From assembly GCA_030324005.1 (NCBI GenBank), contig JARDVH010000025.1:45031504-45095503 (forward strand): a stretch of 64,000 bases of DNA, read 5' to 3'. The DNA is from Negaprion brevirostris. Taxonomy: Eukaryota. Shown piece after piece: positions 43,901-49,900 of the stretch. The stretch's first letter is position 1, and the number at the start of each line of letters is the position of its first letter. Position numbers: made by a program.

Positions 43901-46900
43901 TTGCAAGGAACCGGACATGAGTTTTTCTCATCACTCAGTAAGTACATAAAGATAATGTACAGTAAACAGATCTGTCCTTAATTGTATTTTTACTACCATA
44001 TATTGCTTCAGTAAAAATTAAAATAGCTGAGGAACTTCCTCCTTCCTCAAACATATATTTTTTAAATGCCACAAGATTTTATACTTCCCAGTTATGGAGT
44101 AGTTTAATAGAATGGGTGTGAAGCAGAGTGAATAGAAAGGAAGTTTAGACAGAAGGTGGTGGTGCATTGTTTGAAAGCTTGCATTGAGAACCTGTTTTGC
44201 ATTCTGACAATTAGATTGTTCACTGGGCAAAGTATCTCAAGAATGGTGTGCCTGCTACAAGTTAAAACTTCCAGTGCACATTACAGTGCTGAAGATGAAA
44301 CATCTTGGTGCATTGTCAACTGACCCCCCCCCCAAGTTGAGGATGACGTCTACTCAGGGTCGCTAGTTTTTGTCATAGGATTTCATGTGATTGAACAGGC
44401 CAGTTTCAACTTTGGGCACATGGGTTAGGAGGTTCCATGAGGTAGTGGGATCCAGAGTGCAAGATTTGCTTCCTTTTCTTTCCCCCCTGCCACTCTTGTG
44501 CCTCATCATTAAGATGCTGGGAACTCGAAGCGTGATACAACTTGATGGACAAGTTATATTCTAAATGACTGGTGGTAAGCTCCAGTCATTTAAGTCAATG
44601 CTGCCACGCTTCAAGGCGAACATTAGTACTTTCATTATCGCCCGCTGGAACGTGGCCATTTGAGAGTTGAGTTGATATGGCCAAACTTTTAATCAACTTT
44701 TGACGGAAATCTTTTGAAAGGTGACTACACTGATATTTCACACCACATTATCCCTGTACAGAATTCTTTTACCCATGTTGTGGGATCGAATGCTTTAGAA
44801 CAATAAATTTATGCATGCTACCTTTTCTCTTGACAATGCTTGAAAATAAGTTTGATTTTCTTTATTAATGCAGGTAGAAAAACCTGATGCAAGATTAGAA
44901 TACAAAGAATTTGAGTTAAAGATATGAAATGTATTCTTAGATAATCTGAAATGTTTATTTCATAATTATTTAGTTAATATTTAAAAAGATGCTGGCTCGG
45001 TGTCTCAAAACTGGCTATCTGAAAATCCATGATGTCTGAGAATTGGACATTTTTTCAAAGCTGTAATCACCTGACTTTTCCTCTTCACTGATATCTTTCG
45101 TCTAACTGTAAGGCTGGAAATTCCTTGGAGCTTCTCCCATCCCACATCAACATGTCATTGAAGTGCAGCAGGAACCCCATTTACAGAACTACTGCTATGC
45201 TTCCAGCAATGTAACACTGACGGATCTAAAGCAACTCCACAGAATTTCCTTGGCTGGTTTTGCAGCATGGACTCTTGTTTCTTTCAAAGTTGCCCTTTGC
45301 AATTCTTACTTGGAAAAACATACTGTCAACACACTGCATAACTTACCTGGCCCGAACTGCTTTATTCAAAAACCAGCAAGCTCCAAAATTCGGTATGGGC
45401 CATGTACTAAGATTGCTGGCTTTAGAGTAAGAGAACTTTACAGAAAGAGCTCCTTCGGCCCAGCAAGCCTGTGCCAACCATCAAGCACCTAATCCCATTT
45501 TCCATCACTTGTCTGAAACCTTGTATGCTATGGCATTTCAGGTGCTCATGTAAATGCTTGTTAAATGTTGAAGTGTTCCCGTCTCTACCACCCTTTCAAG
45601 CAGTGAATTCCAGATTGCTACCACCCTCTAAACCTTAAATCTATGCCCCCTGGTGGTTGATCCCTTAGTAAACTTTCCCTTAGTAAAGGGGAAAAGTTTC
45701 TTCCTCTCTACCCCATCTGTGACCCTTATAATGTAGTACACCTCAATTAGCAGCCCCCCCCCCCCGCTCCCCCCCAGCCTTCTGAGGAAAACAACCCCAG
45801 CCTAACCAGCCTCTCTTCATACCTGAAACACCCCAGCCCAGGCAACATGCTGGTCAATTTCCTCTTCACTCTCTCTTCTGCAGTGAGATATTGTATCTGT
45901 AATTTCTATTTTGATTCTTCCTTCCCATTTTGATTATGGGTGAAAATATATTTTGCAATGGATAAGAGTTGCTTAGAACTTGAATGCTATATAAAATTAT
46001 AGTTATGCCAGCATTCGCCAAATCAGGAACAAATTTTGACTTTAAAAGAATGGCTCCAGTCAGGAGCAAAATACTGTGGATGCTGGAAATACTTGGCAAG
46101 ACAGGAGTCATCTGTGGAGGGAGATGTTTCAGATCAATGATGAGAGGTCATCGACCTGAAATGTTAACTCTGTTTCACTCTTCACATATGCTGCCTGACC
46201 TGCTGAGTATTTCAAAAACGTTCTGTTTTTATTATAGCTTAAATCAGGGATTTACTTATCAGATTTACATATGTGTATATTTGTTTTGAAAAGACAGTTT
46301 TCACTGAATATGGACTTATTTGCACAATAAATTAAATAAATGTGAAATATTATTTAATATATGTCTTGGCCAACCTCTGATCTCCTGTATAATGCTCAGG
46401 TGTTAATTGCCCAATTTTTCCACAAAGTCCTCAGATTGTGGACAGTTATTTAACAGCAAAGTCAAGAATACCTCTAAATGAAGATAAAACAGCAATCCTG
46501 TTTCAGATCACTTCCTGATGCCTGTTTTGTTTACAATCCATGTTGTTTTAGTTCAGGTGGGTTTTTCCTTGTCTGACAGCTGTTGCCAGTGTGAATGGTA
46601 ATGTGGTCCTTTGTGTATTTAATCTCTGATAGTGCTCACACAAGAGAATTAAGACTGTCATCGTGCAAGTGCAGGTTTATGAAAGAACTAAACTGAAATC
46701 GATTTCTGGGAAATTCAAAATAATGCCCACAGGTATTTAGATGACCCACTGAAGTCATGTTATAATGACTTTAAAATGTAGTGGTAAGAGTATATGATGA
46801 CATTTACATGCTACTTTTAAATTACCAGTAACCTTAAATTCTCAGCAGTGTATATAAAGTTGACAAAAAAACTTCTCGGCCTCTTGGTTAAGATCAAGTG

Positions 46901-49900
46901 TAGTATCGACATGCTGTACTTGATTGAAGTCATTAGGTTACATTTCAGCTTCTTTTGAAGCAATTTTTTAAAGCAGCATCTCGGCCTTTTGGCGAAGATG
47001 CAAATTAGATCAAGCCTTGGAGGTGGAGCTACACCTACTCCAATCAGCTTGGATCATGTAGGTCAAGCCCANNNNNNNNNNNNNNNNNNNNNNNNNNNNN
47101 NNNNNNNNNNNNNNNNNNNNNNNNNNNNNNNNNNNNNNNNNNNNNNNNNNNNNNNNNNNNNNNNNNNNNNNGCCCTGTCTTGTCAGCTTGGATCGGGAAT
47201 GTCCTAACTTGTTGGGACTCTGAATTGGCTTTAATTTGACTTGATTGGGCCGGAATAAAATTTTTTAAAAAAAGTTGATAAACATATTGAACTATTTTAA
47301 AAAAGAACTTCCCTTCCTACAATGAGTAATGTTTTGCACATAATGCCAATAAGAAATTGCCACCAAAATCCTTTATAATTTACTTACCGTTAAAAACAAT
47401 AGAAATGAAGAAGGCAGGAAAACTGTTTTGTCCCAAAATGTTAACTTCTTTCTACACCTGCTTGTACCAGTTGTACTTTGAATGTGAGTCATCAATACAG
47501 ATACTTAAAAGAACAGTCTTCTGCATTCATTTTCTTAAAATATGTTTCCAGGTTTCAAAATATTCTGTAAAATGTCTTGTTTAAATGTTACTGTAAGGTA
47601 CAGTGTTTTGGAAATCTATTTAGTTTGTGTAAAGTATTGGATTGCAATCTGTTTTCTAAGCCAAGTACATATTGTTGACAGCTATAATTTTCTTAGATCT
47701 GCTGTTTGCATTAAGAAAAAAATGACTGGTCTATAAAGCTGGATCTTTACAAATAATCAGCATTAATTTAGTTACTTTGCTAACTTAAGGGGTTCTCTCC
47801 AACCACGCCCCCCCCACCCCTTGGAAGATGTGTGCAAATCTTGAGCAGAATAAAGAACTTACAATATAACAGGATGCTGATTTTAATCCTACAAATGTTT
47901 TTGCAATCTGTGGTGTGGAAATGAGCAAGCTATATGTTTTTTTTATCAGAAAGAAAGAAAGGTGTTATGAAAATATTATTCATTTGTCCAACCTTGTGAA
48001 ATCACTGATGCTTAAAGAAAGCTTTTGGANNNNNNNNNNGTTTTCAGCTCTGGCACCTAATTGGGTCCCGCAAGAACCCTGTAATGCTCAAAACTAGAAT
48101 ATCTTAAGATTGATCTTAAATGTTGTAATCTATGTTGTTCCCCTTCCTCTCAAAGGACGCCAGTAAACTAGTCTATCGTTGTCTCTTTAATTTTGTTGTT
48201 TGTTTATTTAGCCTTGTATATGAACTAGTGAATTGATTCATTCGAAAAAGAGGAGGGGGATAGTTTTTGTTAATTATGTTTATGATGTTCGTATTGCTTA
48301 TCTGTGACAACATTGACCAATGAACTTTTGACTTGGAGATTGGAAAGGGATAAATTTGTTTTTTCTAAATAGATGAAGGAAATCTGATGGGGAGGTGGAT
48401 GATGGAGAGGTGGGTGGGTATATCATCAGAGGTGTCTGTCAGACTTTGAGCATAGGGATTCATGTTCCGATTGCAAGGAAGTAGAAACTTCTAATTATAG
48501 GCGGCACGGTAGCACAGTGATTAGCATTGCTGCTTCACAGCTCCAGGGACCTGGGTTCAATTCCCGACTTGGATCACTGTCTGTGTGGAGTTTGCACATT
48601 CCCCTCTTGTCTGCATGGGTTTCCTCCGGATGCTCCGGTTTCCTCCCACAGTCCAAAGATGTGCAGGTTAGGTTGATTGGTCATGCTAACATTGCCCCTT
48701 AGTGTCCTGAGATGTGCAGGTTAGAGGGATGAGTGGGTAAATTATAAAGGGATAAGGGAGTGGGATTGTGATTGGTATAGACTCGATGGGCTGAATGGCC
48801 TCTTACTGTACTGTAGGGATTCTATTTCTAAAAAAAAATTAAAAGATTTACAGGAGACATGTTGTTCTGCAGAATTAGGCTTTGTAGGCTTTTATTTGTT
48901 GCCAGAATTCCAAAACACTTCTTGTATTTTAGGCAGTTTCTTTTTAAAGTTCTGATACATCTGAGCAACCTTGGCTAAATGTGTTGGAATTAACACATTT
49001 CCTTTATAGCATTGTTATTTAAACCTTCTCAAGGTGAATGACACACTACTCGGGAATCAGTGTAGCACATGCTGTCAGGGCCCTAGAGTGCATTTCAGCA
49101 AAAAATATGCCTTCAGCCCACCCTATCCTGCTGACCATCTGCTTTTGGTTGGACGAGTCACAAATTTACATGGTGGCTGGAGATCACACAAAGGGTTGAC
49201 AACCTGTTTTCCTACTCATCCAGCTGAAGAAACAATGCATCGGGGTAAAATAATTGCAGATGGAAGAAGTTCTTCTTGCTATTGATTTACCTTAGTTACC
49301 ACACCAAGCGTATTATCTGACCATTTTTAAACTTAAAATACAACTTCCTGTTGAATTTTAGTTTACATTAGATTGCACTATATCTGCAAATGCATTTTGT
49401 AGAAACAGTAAATTGACTTTAACACTGATTTGTGCAGTGTGTTAACAAATCTAGTCACTTTTTAATGAATTGTATTTTTGAAGGCTTGTTATAATGCAAA
49501 ACCATCCCTATAATTATTTACATAAAAGTAAGTTTGTGTTTGATGCTTAAGAAAGTCGTTATTTTTATAAATATTTCTTGTATAAATAAAATCTTTCAAT
49601 GCTACCATCTAATTATAAGGGTGCTATTTATTATTCCATGGGTGCAGTTTCACAATTCTCCATTCACCGCTTTGCTGTTGTAATTGCTAATTGTGACCTT
49701 GATTGTAAAGCCTCATGCTGCCTGATATTAAATGCAACAAGTGTACTTCATTAAAAATAGGATTTTGAATAAATAAAGGCAAGTAGATATTGGAAAGAAA
49801 GGTCTCGAGATCGTTTACTTCTAAATGAATGTGCCAAAAGGCTTCATTCAAAGATTGACAGCAACCCTAATAAGAAGCTTTAAAGTGGATTTAAAAACCT

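What the first reader, a model, noticed from the sequence alone, without database searches (positions are those of the whole stretch)
46892..46925. Fold-back stem covering the U2 branch-point recognition sequence
Seen in the sequence: exactly where U2 homology stops, the sequence folds back as GATCAAGTGTAGTAT-[CGAC]-ATGCTGTACTTGATT. This gives 15 contiguous pairs (11 Watson-Crick, 4 G-U) closed by a 4-nt loop. All four departures from a perfect palindrome remain pairable as G-U in a + strand RNA. The stem buries GUAGUA, which normally pairs with intron branch points, along with adjacent U6-pairing nucleotides. Inference: the arm arose by self-primed fold-back and may be retained at the RNA level, neutralising a U2-like transcript that could otherwise interfere with splicing.
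Basis: partly seen in the sequence, partly recalled or inferred. Interest (0 to 1): 0.7.

Follow-up and report, generated by a model that had tools for sequence, protein, structure and literature searches.

The report
Hairpin ending a dead U2 fragment
A real 15-base-pair hairpin sits at the broken end of a 40-base leftover of the U2 splicing RNA, most likely a copying scar in a dead retroposed fragment and not a device that protects splicing.

Summary
The stem is real. Positions 46892-46906 pair with 46911-46925: 15 contiguous pairs, 11 Watson-Crick and 4 G-U, with loop CGAC. RNA energy is -13.5 kcal/mol, and 0 of 200 shuffles fold as well. At this fixed place chance gives such a stem in 10 of 300,000 simulations. 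Somewhere in a 64-kb window it appears in 14 of 60.

Only 46868-46907 is solid U2 (35.6 of the 46.6 bits). A second U2 5' piece lies 105 nt downstream. There is no credible Sm site or 3' stem-loops, no other copy in the window, and no protein domain within 5 kb.

The U2 piece ends at nt 40. That is 2 nt from the site where Keno and Utopia retrotransposons cut U2 genes (PMC4640811). The double U2 head recalls crocodilian SINEU and Tx1 elements (PMC4494074).

My best reading is a dead composite U2-derived fragment whose junction carries a short inverted duplication from a polymerase template switch.

Self-priming predicts a longer palindrome, which is absent. The G-U bias is weak (p 0.06). Nothing shows transcription or selection. 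Covariation could not be tested because no family copies were reachable.

The parts
46868..46907 (+). U2 snRNA-derived head, model positions 1-40: stem-loop I, helix Ia nucleotides and the GUAGUA branch-point recognition sequence.
   Evidence: cmscan of 46855-46910 alone gives 35.6 bits, E 1.5e-06. Posterior is high up to 46907. Against the Rfam consensus, positions 2-4 differ and there are 2 further differences in positions 5-40, read from the alignment.
46892..46906 (+). 5' arm of the fold-back, equal to U2 nt G25-U39. It is identical to the Rfam consensus at all 15 positions.
   Evidence: G25 is also the first nucleotide of the natural branchpoint-interacting stem-loop (PMC13019295).
46907..46910 (+). 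Loop CGAC. The C corresponds to U2 nt 40. GAC is not U2.
46911..46925 (+). 3' arm, an inverted near-copy of U2 nt 25-39. It matches the exact complement at 11 of 15 positions. The four departures (46913, 46916, 46917, 46925) are all transitions that leave G-U pairs.
   Evidence: (I10). The 27-nt stretch 46911-46937 is unique in the window at up to 3 mismatches.
46973..46999 (+). Second, independent U2 5' piece (model positions 1-27), 105 nt downstream of the first. It shares no derived substitution with the first head.
   Evidence: Direct repeat D1, 77% identity over 30 nt. cmscan of 46908-47071 gives 10.2 bits, E 5.3, with posterior high only over these 27 nt. The blastn self-hit is 21 nt at 85.7%.
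47006..47071 (+). Degenerate repeats that re-use the GATCAAG motif (U2 nt 25-31) and run into the assembly gap.
   Evidence: D11: 47006-47016 and 47059-47069. D2: 47044-47064 and 47183-47203. Tandem Repeats Finder reports nothing here.
47072..47171 (.). Run of 100 N inside or beside the element. It was not read and not filled.
47255..47282 (+). A/T-rich tract followed by a candidate 3' target-site duplication (47271-47282). Its upstream partner is 46856-46867, directly before the U2 head. This is only a candidate.
   Evidence: D4. The 12-nt match with 1 mismatch is not significant on its own: 462 of 2000 simulations score as well.

Best explanation
This is a dead, composite U2-derived fragment, not a gene. 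A 40-nt U2 5' head (46868-46907) is joined to unrelated sequence, and a second partial U2 head follows 105 nt later.

The head ends at U2 nt 40, in the single-stranded stretch between stem-loop I and stem-loop IIa. That is 2 nt from the site (nt 38/39) that Keno and Utopia retrotransposons cleave in U2 genes.

The layout is that of U2-headed retroposons and chimeric retrocopies such as SINEU and Tx1. In those, U2 pieces are added to the 5' end by reverse-transcriptase template switching, or by co-transcription from a U2 gene that carries an insertion.

The 15-bp fold-back is a short inverted duplication of the last 15 nt of the head. It was made when the polymerase at the junction switched strands for about 15 nt. 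That polymerase could have been a LINE reverse transcriptase during a template jump, or a DNA polymerase during repair or replication. The copy has since picked up four transitions.

The fold-back would lock the branch-point recognition sequence in any plus-strand transcript, in the manner of an over-stabilised branchpoint-interacting stem-loop. Nothing indicates that such a transcript exists or that the pairing is under selection.

Shown: the stem, its non-randomness at this place, the limits of U2 homology, the second head, and the absence of the rest of U2. Inferred: retroposition, the strand-switch origin and the lack of function.
For: - Stem and significance: and (10 of 300,000 simulations reach 15 pairs at this place).
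- Only the first 40 nt are solid U2: 35.6 bits alone, 40.7 bits for 46860-46972, and 46.6 bits for the whole hit against a gathering score of 46. The remainder alone scores 10.2 bits, E 5.3.
- A second U2 5' piece is present.
- No U2 3' part turns up anywhere in 40000-54000 at E up to 10.
- No protein domain was found in the 30 ORF translations from 41.8-51.4 kb.
- PMC4640811 (passages and section 6): Keno and Utopia share one U2 target site. The downstream flank starts at nt 39 and nt 1-38 are expected upstream.
- PMC4494074 (abstract, passages, sections 16, 17, 19, 20): SINEU and some Tx1 families carry short U2 heads. U1 or U2 pieces are added recurrently at the 5' end by template switch, and partial duplications occur inside the heads.
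- PMC10830420 (passages): LINE-1 ORF2p shows non-templated addition, template jumping and efficient extension of hairpins.
- PMC8794818 (Significance section): replication template switching creates hairpin stems de novo.
Against: - All four departures lie in the 3' arm and none in the 5' arm. Fisher one-sided p is 0.050 against the 5' arm and 0.054 against the 2 of 36 differences in the head. All four also leave G-U pairs (p 0.0625 for transitions only). A perfect copy decaying neutrally does not predict either pattern, so the 3' arm may never have been an exact copy.
- Retroposition is not demonstrated. The candidate target-site duplication is not significant (462 of 2000), the A-rich tract is short and interrupted, and a 100-N gap lies between head and tail.
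- No second copy exists in the window, so family status is unknown.
- The head ends at nt 40, not 38.
- The second head ends at nt 27, which the Keno/Utopia site does not explain.
Confidence: 0.5

Rival explanations
1. Fossil of an RNA-RNA duplex. The 3' arm is the 5' end of a foreign RNA that was base-paired, G-U pairs included, with the accessible nt 25-39 of a U2 snRNA. A LINE reverse transcriptase ran off that RNA's 5' end, added 2-3 untemplated nucleotides (the GAC of the loop), and jumped onto the paired U2 at nt 40. The two strands of an intermolecular duplex thus became one hairpin.
For: This explains both oddities that neutral decay does not. The 5' arm is untouched U2 while all departures are in the 3' arm (p about 0.05), and every departure is a G-U wobble, which RNA pairing tolerates. 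The paired stretch starts at G25, at the foot of stem-loop I (only G25 and A26 overlap its 3' strand). It therefore covers essentially the part of U2 that is not in stem-loop I (structure line). ORF2p shows non-templated addition and template jumping (PMC10830420, passages). Short homology at U1/SINEU-2 junctions is reported (PMC4494074, section 17).
Against: No known case was found of a jump across a duplex giving a hairpin. The donor RNA is unidentified: the 27-nt stretch 46911-46937 has no other copy in the window. The statistics that favour this model are marginal and post hoc. Retroposition itself is unproven.
Confidence: 0.17
2. The hairpin is a conserved feature of an undescribed family of U2-headed retroposons (SINEU-like, or a Keno/Tx1 non-autonomous derivative). 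It would be kept in the master copies because the element's RNA uses it, for example for 5' end stability, for processing of a U2-element co-transcript, or for template jumping.
For: The head ends 2 nt from the Keno/Utopia target site. The double U2 head resembles SINEU-1. G-U-only departures fit selection on RNA. The plus-strand RNA fold is far stronger than the minus-strand fold (-13.5 against -6.1 kcal/mol).
Against: There is a single copy in 64 kb. No reverse transcriptase or endonuclease lies nearby. No Rfam ribozyme or other family covers the hairpin at E up to 10. Kojima reported no SINEU outside crocodilians (PMC4494074). My searches found no report of such a family in sharks. The target-site duplication and tail are not significant.
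Confidence: 0.13
3. U2 homology does not really stop. A U2 pseudogene received a 6-nt insertion (46908-46913) at the Keno/Utopia cleavage site. The 3' arm would then be the natural U2 nt 40-50 region, which is already partly complementary to nt 25-35, improved by a few changes or by a quasi-palindrome correction.
For: Positions 46914-46921 match U2 nt 40-47 at 7 of 8 positions. The U2 letters come from the Rfam consensus and the motif in PMC4640811. At 46916 and 46917 the observed bases equal native G42 and U43, not the exact complement. A U-rich motif lies about where the Sm site would be (46961-46968; alignment, posterior about 0.5).
Against: At 46918, 46922 and 46923 the arm follows the complement, not native U2 (nt 48 onward is recalled, not taken from a call). 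The 6-nt insert would have to pair by luck at 3-4 positions. Beyond 46925 no U2 signal is found: the remainder scores 10.2 bits, all of it from the second head. Any complement of nt 25-35 resembles nt 40-47, so the 7 of 8 match is not independent evidence.
Confidence: 0.06
4. One reading: the arm arose by self-primed fold-back and is kept by selection so that a U2-like transcript cannot titrate branch points or U6.
For: The stem does bury G25-C28 and GUAGUA. BSL-stabilising mutations (M2, M1/M2) nearly abolish orthogonal U2 function and lower U2 levels (PMC13019295, passages). So locking this region would inactivate it. All four departures are G-U.
Against: No longer palindrome exists, which self-priming would produce. 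The fragment has no Sm site and no 3' stem-loops, so there is no snRNP to neutralise. There is no evidence of expression. Selection on one orphan fragment is implausible. The G-U bias is p 0.06 and is subject to ascertainment.
Confidence: 0.04
5. Pure coincidence: unrelated downstream sequence happens to be complementary.
For: Window-wide, stems of this quality are not rare: 14 of 60 simulated windows have at least one.
Against: At this particular junction the chance is 10 of 300,000.
Confidence: 0.05

Closest known systems
SINEU and U2-headed Tx1 elements of crocodilians (Kojima 2015, PMC4494074)
   Same: Both have a short U2-derived 5' head, a second U2-derived piece further in ('recurrent addition'), and partial duplication inside the U2-derived part. 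Both lack the snRNA 3' domains.
   Different: Here there is one copy only. The tail and target-site duplication are unproven, and the body sequence could not be compared with any SINEU consensus. No junction hairpin is mentioned in the parts of the paper that I read.
Keno (Tx1 clade) and Utopia (NeSL clade) insertions in U2 genes (PMC4640811)
   Same: The U2 sequence breaks within 2 nt of their shared target, nt 38/39.
   Different: No U2 nt 39-onward flank lies downstream. No reverse transcriptase or endonuclease ORF is adjacent. The sequence after the break is only 65 nt long before another U2 5' piece begins.
3'-truncated (tailless) snRNA retropseudogenes (PMC5322556)
   Same: The copy is 5'-complete and truncated in a single-stranded region of the RNA.
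   Different: No target-site duplication lies next to the truncation point. The best match is 4 nt, and 1948 of 2000 simulations do as well.
Natural U2 branchpoint-interacting stem-loop, BSL (PMC13019295)
   Same: The 5' strand starts at the same nucleotide, G25. Both structures are mutually exclusive with branch-helix and helix Ia pairing.
   Different: The natural BSL pairs G25-U32 with U2's own nt 38-45, includes mismatches, and leaves GUAGUA in the loop. Here the partner strand is foreign, the helix has 15 uninterrupted pairs, and GUAGUA lies inside the stem.
Template-switch-mutation hairpins (PMC8794818; PMC10710096 seen only in the search listing)
   Same: A short inverted copy of directly adjacent sequence with a 4-nt spacer creates a stem in one step.
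   Different: Those cases were inferred from ancestral reconstructions. No outgroup is available here, and the copy is only 11 of 15 exact.

Membership tests
U2 spliceosomal snRNA gene (Rfam RF00004) | 5' domain: stem-loop I, helix Ia nucleotides and branch-point recognition sequence | tested here: met
   Positions 46868-46907 score 35.6 bits alone, with posterior near 1.
U2 spliceosomal snRNA gene (Rfam RF00004) | Stem-loops IIa/IIb, Sm site, and stem-loops III and IV | tested here: not met
   Positions 46908-47071 alone score 10.2 bits, E 5.3, and that match is a second 5' piece. The full hit of 46.6 bits only just passes the gathering score of 46.
U2 spliceosomal snRNA gene (Rfam RF00004) | Upstream PSE at about -55 and a downstream 3' box | not testable with these tools
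   No model of vertebrate snRNA promoters is on hand. A PSE-like and TATA-like pair upstream was seen by eye only, at non-canonical distances.
SINEU / U2-headed retroposon | snRNA-derived 5' head, with further U1 or U2 pieces added at the 5' end | tested here: met
   Two U2 5' pieces, at 46868-46907 and 46973-46999.
SINEU / U2-headed retroposon | 3' poly(A) tail and flanking target-site duplications | tested here: inconclusive
   An A/T-rich tract at 47255-47272 and a 12-nt match with 1 mismatch, which 462 of 2000 simulations equal. An N gap intervenes.
SINEU / U2-headed retroposon | Multi-copy family with a shared body | not testable with these tools
   There is one copy in the window. The only open contig collection holds bacterial and archaeal genomes, and no Repbase or Dfam library is available.
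Keno/Utopia insertion into a U2 gene | Break at U2 nt 38/39 | tested here: inconclusive
   Homology ends at nt 40. The published site is nt 38/39, with variable 5' junctions.
Keno/Utopia insertion into a U2 gene | U2 nt 39-onward as the 3' flank, and an element ORF (RT with APE or RLE) | tested here: not met
   No further U2 match in 40000-54000 at E up to 10. No Pfam family in the 30 ORF translations from 41.8-51.4 kb.
Tailless snRNA retropseudogene | Target-site duplication of 8-35 nt within 15 nt of the truncation point | tested here: not met
   The best match between 46838-46872 and 46903-46935 is 4 nt. 1948 of 2000 simulations do as well.
Self-primed (fold-back) reverse transcript | [quoted passage not shown] | tested here: not met
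   The reverse complement of 46868-46891 has no match in 46926-46975. The best is 5 nt, equalled in 1133 of 2000 simulations.
Template-switch-mutation hairpin | Inverted copy of adjacent sequence, absent from the ancestral state | tested here: inconclusive
   The inverted near-copy is present (11 of 15 exact). The ancestral state is not available.
microRNA or other Rfam hairpin RNA | Match to a curated family; a stem long enough for Dicer (about 22 bp, recalled) | tested here: not met
   No family other than U2 has E below 0.7 over the hairpin. The stem is 15 bp.

The most novel reading that the evidence does not exclude
The locus is one copy of an undescribed family of U2-headed retroposons in a cartilaginous fish. 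The family would be born from a Keno- or Utopia-type insertion at U2 nt 38-40. Its RNA would keep a 15-bp 'super-BSL' hairpin between the U2 head and the element's first nucleotides. The hairpin could serve the element's own life cycle, or it could be the imprint of a reverse-transcriptase jump across a U2-RNA duplex. This would extend snRNA-headed SINEs beyond crocodilians and give them their first structured junction.
Probability: 0.13. Interest if true: 0.6.

Novelty: new member of a known kind. Interest (0 to 1): 0.27.

Why it matters
As it stands this matters little. Truncated snRNA fragments are common debris, and one hairpin in one copy says nothing about function.

Two points give it modest value. 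First, the break falls at the conserved U2 site that two unrelated retrotransposon lineages target. Together with a double U2 head, that hints snRNA-headed retroposons may exist outside crocodilians. Second, the pattern of departures (all in one arm, all G-U) is not what simple decay of an inverted duplication predicts. If family copies show the same pattern, it would be a natural record of how a LINE reverse transcriptase picks up U2. It would also be a natural example of a locked branch-point recognition sequence.

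Tried and rejected
- **Other copies in the window.** blastn self-search with word size 7, the U2 14-mer at up to 3 mismatches (4 matches against 6.01 expected, only 46892 exact), and the 27-nt 3' arm stretch (1 match, itself). None were found, so covariation could not be tested.
- **Tandem structure.** Tandem Repeats Finder found nothing at the locus. A three-way alignment of 46865-46972, 46970-47071 and 47172-47275 aligned only the U2 heads, with 64% mean column identity.
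- **Target-site duplications.** The 12-nt candidate is not significant. There is none next to the truncation point.
- **Full-length diverged U2.** Rejected by the piecewise cmscan runs.
- **Octamer motif at 46998-47005, inside the second head.** The window holds 8 matches against 6.23 expected, so it carries no weight.
- **Ribozyme or other RNA family over the junction.** Only chance-level hits.
- **Coding context.** No Pfam family in the 30 ORF translations from 41.8-51.4 kb.
- **Branch-site register.** I checked by hand whether the 3' arm pairs with GUAGUA the way a branch site does, with a bulged A. It does not; the pairing is a plain antiparallel complement.
- **Literature.** I looked for U2-headed SINEs in sharks. 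'SINEU' plus 'shark' returned 14 papers, of which 10 were listed and none were relevant by title. 'U2-derived', 'SINE', 'snRNA' and 'retrotransposon' returned 1,387 papers holding at least 3 terms, of which 12 were listed and none concerned fish. This is a weak negative.
- **Not done.** Supplementary figures of PMC4640811 and PMC4494074 (junction alignments) and of PMC5322556 (U2 truncation points) were not opened and may bear on the nt-40 end point.

Full report
**1. The observation**

Positions 46892-46906 pair with 46911-46925 around the loop CGAC (46907-46910). That gives 15 contiguous pairs, 11 Watson-Crick and 4 G-U.

RNAfold returns exactly this stem as both MFE and centroid, at -13.5 kcal/mol. 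The z-score is -4.23, and 0 of 200 dinucleotide shuffles fold as well. The stem survives in the MFE and centroid of the 204-nt context.

The minus-strand RNA reaches only -6.1 kcal/mol, z -1.9. The plus strand folded as DNA gives -5.2 kcal/mol.

**2. Is it more than chance?**

The answer depends on the question asked.

- Across the whole window, both strands, a stem with at least 15 contiguous pairs, at least 11 Watson-Crick and a loop of 3-8 nt occurred in 14 of 60 Markov-simulated windows, mean 0.23 per window. A reader scanning 64 kb would therefore often meet one.
- In the real window it is the longest such hairpin apart from a GT microsatellite.
- With the 40-nt U2 head held fixed and the downstream sequence randomised, a stem of at least 15 pairs straddling the end of the head arose in 10 of 300,000 simulations. 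A stem of at least 12 pairs arose in 196 of 300,000.

The complementarity at this junction is therefore real. The 3' arm is related to the 5' arm either by copying or by pairing.

**3. What the U2 match really is**

Rfam finds one family above its gathering score in the window: U2 at 46868-47059, 46.6 bits against a cut-off of 46. Searching the pieces separately shows where that score comes from.

- 46855-46910 alone gives 35.6 bits.
- 46860-46972 gives 40.7 bits.
- 46908-47071 alone gives 10.2 bits, E 5.3.

That last match is a second U2 5' piece (model positions 1-27, 46973-46999), 105 nt downstream of the first (D1). There is no credible stem-loop II, Sm site, or stem-loop III or IV.

The two heads share no derived substitution relative to the Rfam consensus, read from the alignments.

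No further U2 piece is seen in 40000-54000 at E up to 10.

**4. Surroundings**

The locus lies in non-coding sequence. In Pfam, the 30 ORF translations from 41.8-51.4 kb match no family. Of 5 further ORFs elsewhere in the window, 4 match and one (39858-40418) matches none (35 in all).

The matches are an F-box exon (16927-17274) and an LRR exon (34463-34792) on the plus strand. There are also a LINE reverse transcriptase (53116-53868) and an endonuclease fragment (55241-55570).

The exons were scanned one by one and were not joined.

A 100-N run (47072-47171) interrupts the region and was left as it is. I do not take the window for human.

**5. Retroposition signals are weak**

A 12-nt match with one mismatch (46856-46867 and 47271-47282) brackets the head on one side and an A/T-rich tract on the other. 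However, 462 of 2000 simulations give as good a match.

Next to the truncation point there is no duplication at all. This argues against a simple tailless retropseudogene as defined in PMC5322556 (passages).

**6. Where the head ends**

The head ends at U2 nt 40.

Kojima and Jurka report that two unrelated retrotransposon lineages, Keno and Utopia, insert at one and the same U2 site. The downstream flank starts at nt 39, nt 1-38 are expected upstream, and the 5' junctions vary (PMC4640811, passages and section 6).

Kojima also describes crocodilian SINEU and Tx1 families (PMC4494074, abstract, passages, sections 16, 17, 19, 20):

- They carry short U2 heads.
- U1 or U2 pieces are added to them repeatedly by template switch.
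- Partial duplications occur inside the heads.

The present layout (head, 65 nt, second head, re-used GATCAAG motifs) resembles that kind of element.

Membership cannot be tested here. There is one copy in the window, no eukaryotic genome collection, and no repeat library.

**7. Origin of the arm**

Three facts constrain it.

- (a) The palindrome stops at 15 bp. The reverse complement of 46868-46891 has no match downstream. Self-primed reverse transcription running to the 5' end is therefore not what happened.
- (b) The 5' arm is identical to consensus U2 at 15 of 15 positions, while the 3' arm departs from the exact complement at 4 of 15. Fisher one-sided p is 0.050, or 0.054 against the 2 of 36 differences in the rest of the head.
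- (c) All four departures are transitions that leave G-U pairs. That is p 0.0625 if only transitions occur and 0.012 with one third transversions. This last figure is inflated by ascertainment.

A short inverted duplication by polymerase strand switching, followed by decay, remains the simplest account. The mechanism is documented for replication (PMC8794818, Significance section). The needed activities are documented for a LINE reverse transcriptase (PMC10830420, passages).

Facts (b) and (c) leave room for two other readings. In one, the arm was never an exact copy: it is the 5' end of an RNA that was paired with U2 nt 25-39 when a reverse transcriptase jumped across. In the other, the arm is a structure kept in the RNA of a retroposon family.

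A further caveat concerns where homology ends. After a 6-nt insert, 46914-46921 matches U2 nt 40-47 at 7 of 8 positions (letters and from the motif). At 46916-46917 the arm follows native U2, while at 46918 it follows the complement. Any complement of nt 25-35 resembles nt 40-47, so this observation cannot decide between the models.

**8. What it would do**

The 5' arm begins at G25, which is also the first nucleotide of the natural branchpoint-interacting stem-loop. G25-C28 also pair with U6 in helix Ia. Mutations that stabilise the natural stem (M2, M1/M2) nearly abolish the function of an orthogonal U2 and lower its level (PMC13019295, passages).

A 15-bp uninterrupted stem would therefore indeed lock this region in a plus-strand RNA.

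What is missing is any reason to think the RNA exists, could assemble into a particle, or needs silencing. The fragment has none of the 3' domains, and no promoter could be tested.

**9. Verdict**

The functional inference is not supported.

I file this as a new member of a known kind, U2-derived retroposed debris with a junctional inverted repeat. Its interest is low to moderate. Its value lies mainly in the hint of U2-headed retroposons outside crocodilians and in the unusual one-armed, G-U-only pattern. A genome-wide search would test both quickly.

The literature negatives rest only. PMC4476161 and PMC10710096 were seen only in search listings.

Noticed in passing
window 46822-46858: Upstream of the U2 head, a stretch at 46822-46839 resembles, from my recollection only, a vertebrate snRNA proximal sequence element. 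A TATA-like TATATAAA follows at 46851-46858. Their distances to the U2 start (about -46 and -17) are not the canonical ones. The TATA-like part overlaps the candidate target-site duplication.
   Followed up: no
window 46920-46948: The end of the 3' arm reads like a branch-site consensus (TTGAT, 46920-46924). About 25 nt downstream there is a 3'-splice-site-like TTTCAG (46943-46948). The stretch between them is not pyrimidine-rich. This may be chance.
   Followed up: no
window 47006-47069 and 47044-47203: Short direct repeats flank the 100-N gap: 47006-47016 with 47059-47069, spaced 53 nt, and 47044-47064 with 47183-47203. They suggest a degenerate tandem array that may have caused the gap.
   Followed up: partly
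window 16927-17274 and 34463-34792 (+): Exons of an F-box / leucine-rich-repeat protein gene (Pfam F-box-like 5.9e-09; LRR_4 1.9e-06). The U2 fragment lies about 12 kb downstream of the LRR exon.
   Followed up: partly
window 53116-53868, 55241-55570, 15165-15905, 39858-40418, 54176-54496: LINE fragments: RVT_1 (8.5e-18), an Exo_endo_phos fragment, and several copies of a conserved LINE C-terminal ORF with long open frames. This suggests a fairly young non-LTR family in this genome.
   Followed up: partly
window 7490-8014 (-), 18224-18541, 48403-48702, 57428-57700: A dispersed repeat whose translation carries the same motif (…GSLSVWSLH…) in several places. It is probably a SINE. 48630-48724 holds an internal 53-nt-spaced direct repeat.
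   Followed up: no
window 46127-46161 (minus strand): A hairpin of 14 contiguous pairs (12 Watson-Crick, 7-nt loop), 700 nt upstream of the U2 fragment.
   Followed up: no
window 50530-50710 (-): A weak match to Rfam Hairpin-meta2 ribozyme (18.9 bits against a gathering score of 210, E 0.069). Almost certainly chance.
   Followed up: no
whole window: There are 15 runs of N, 10 to 926 nt long, seven of them exactly 100 nt. The assembly is fragmented, so one gap every 4 kb carries no special meaning for this locus.
   Followed up: yes
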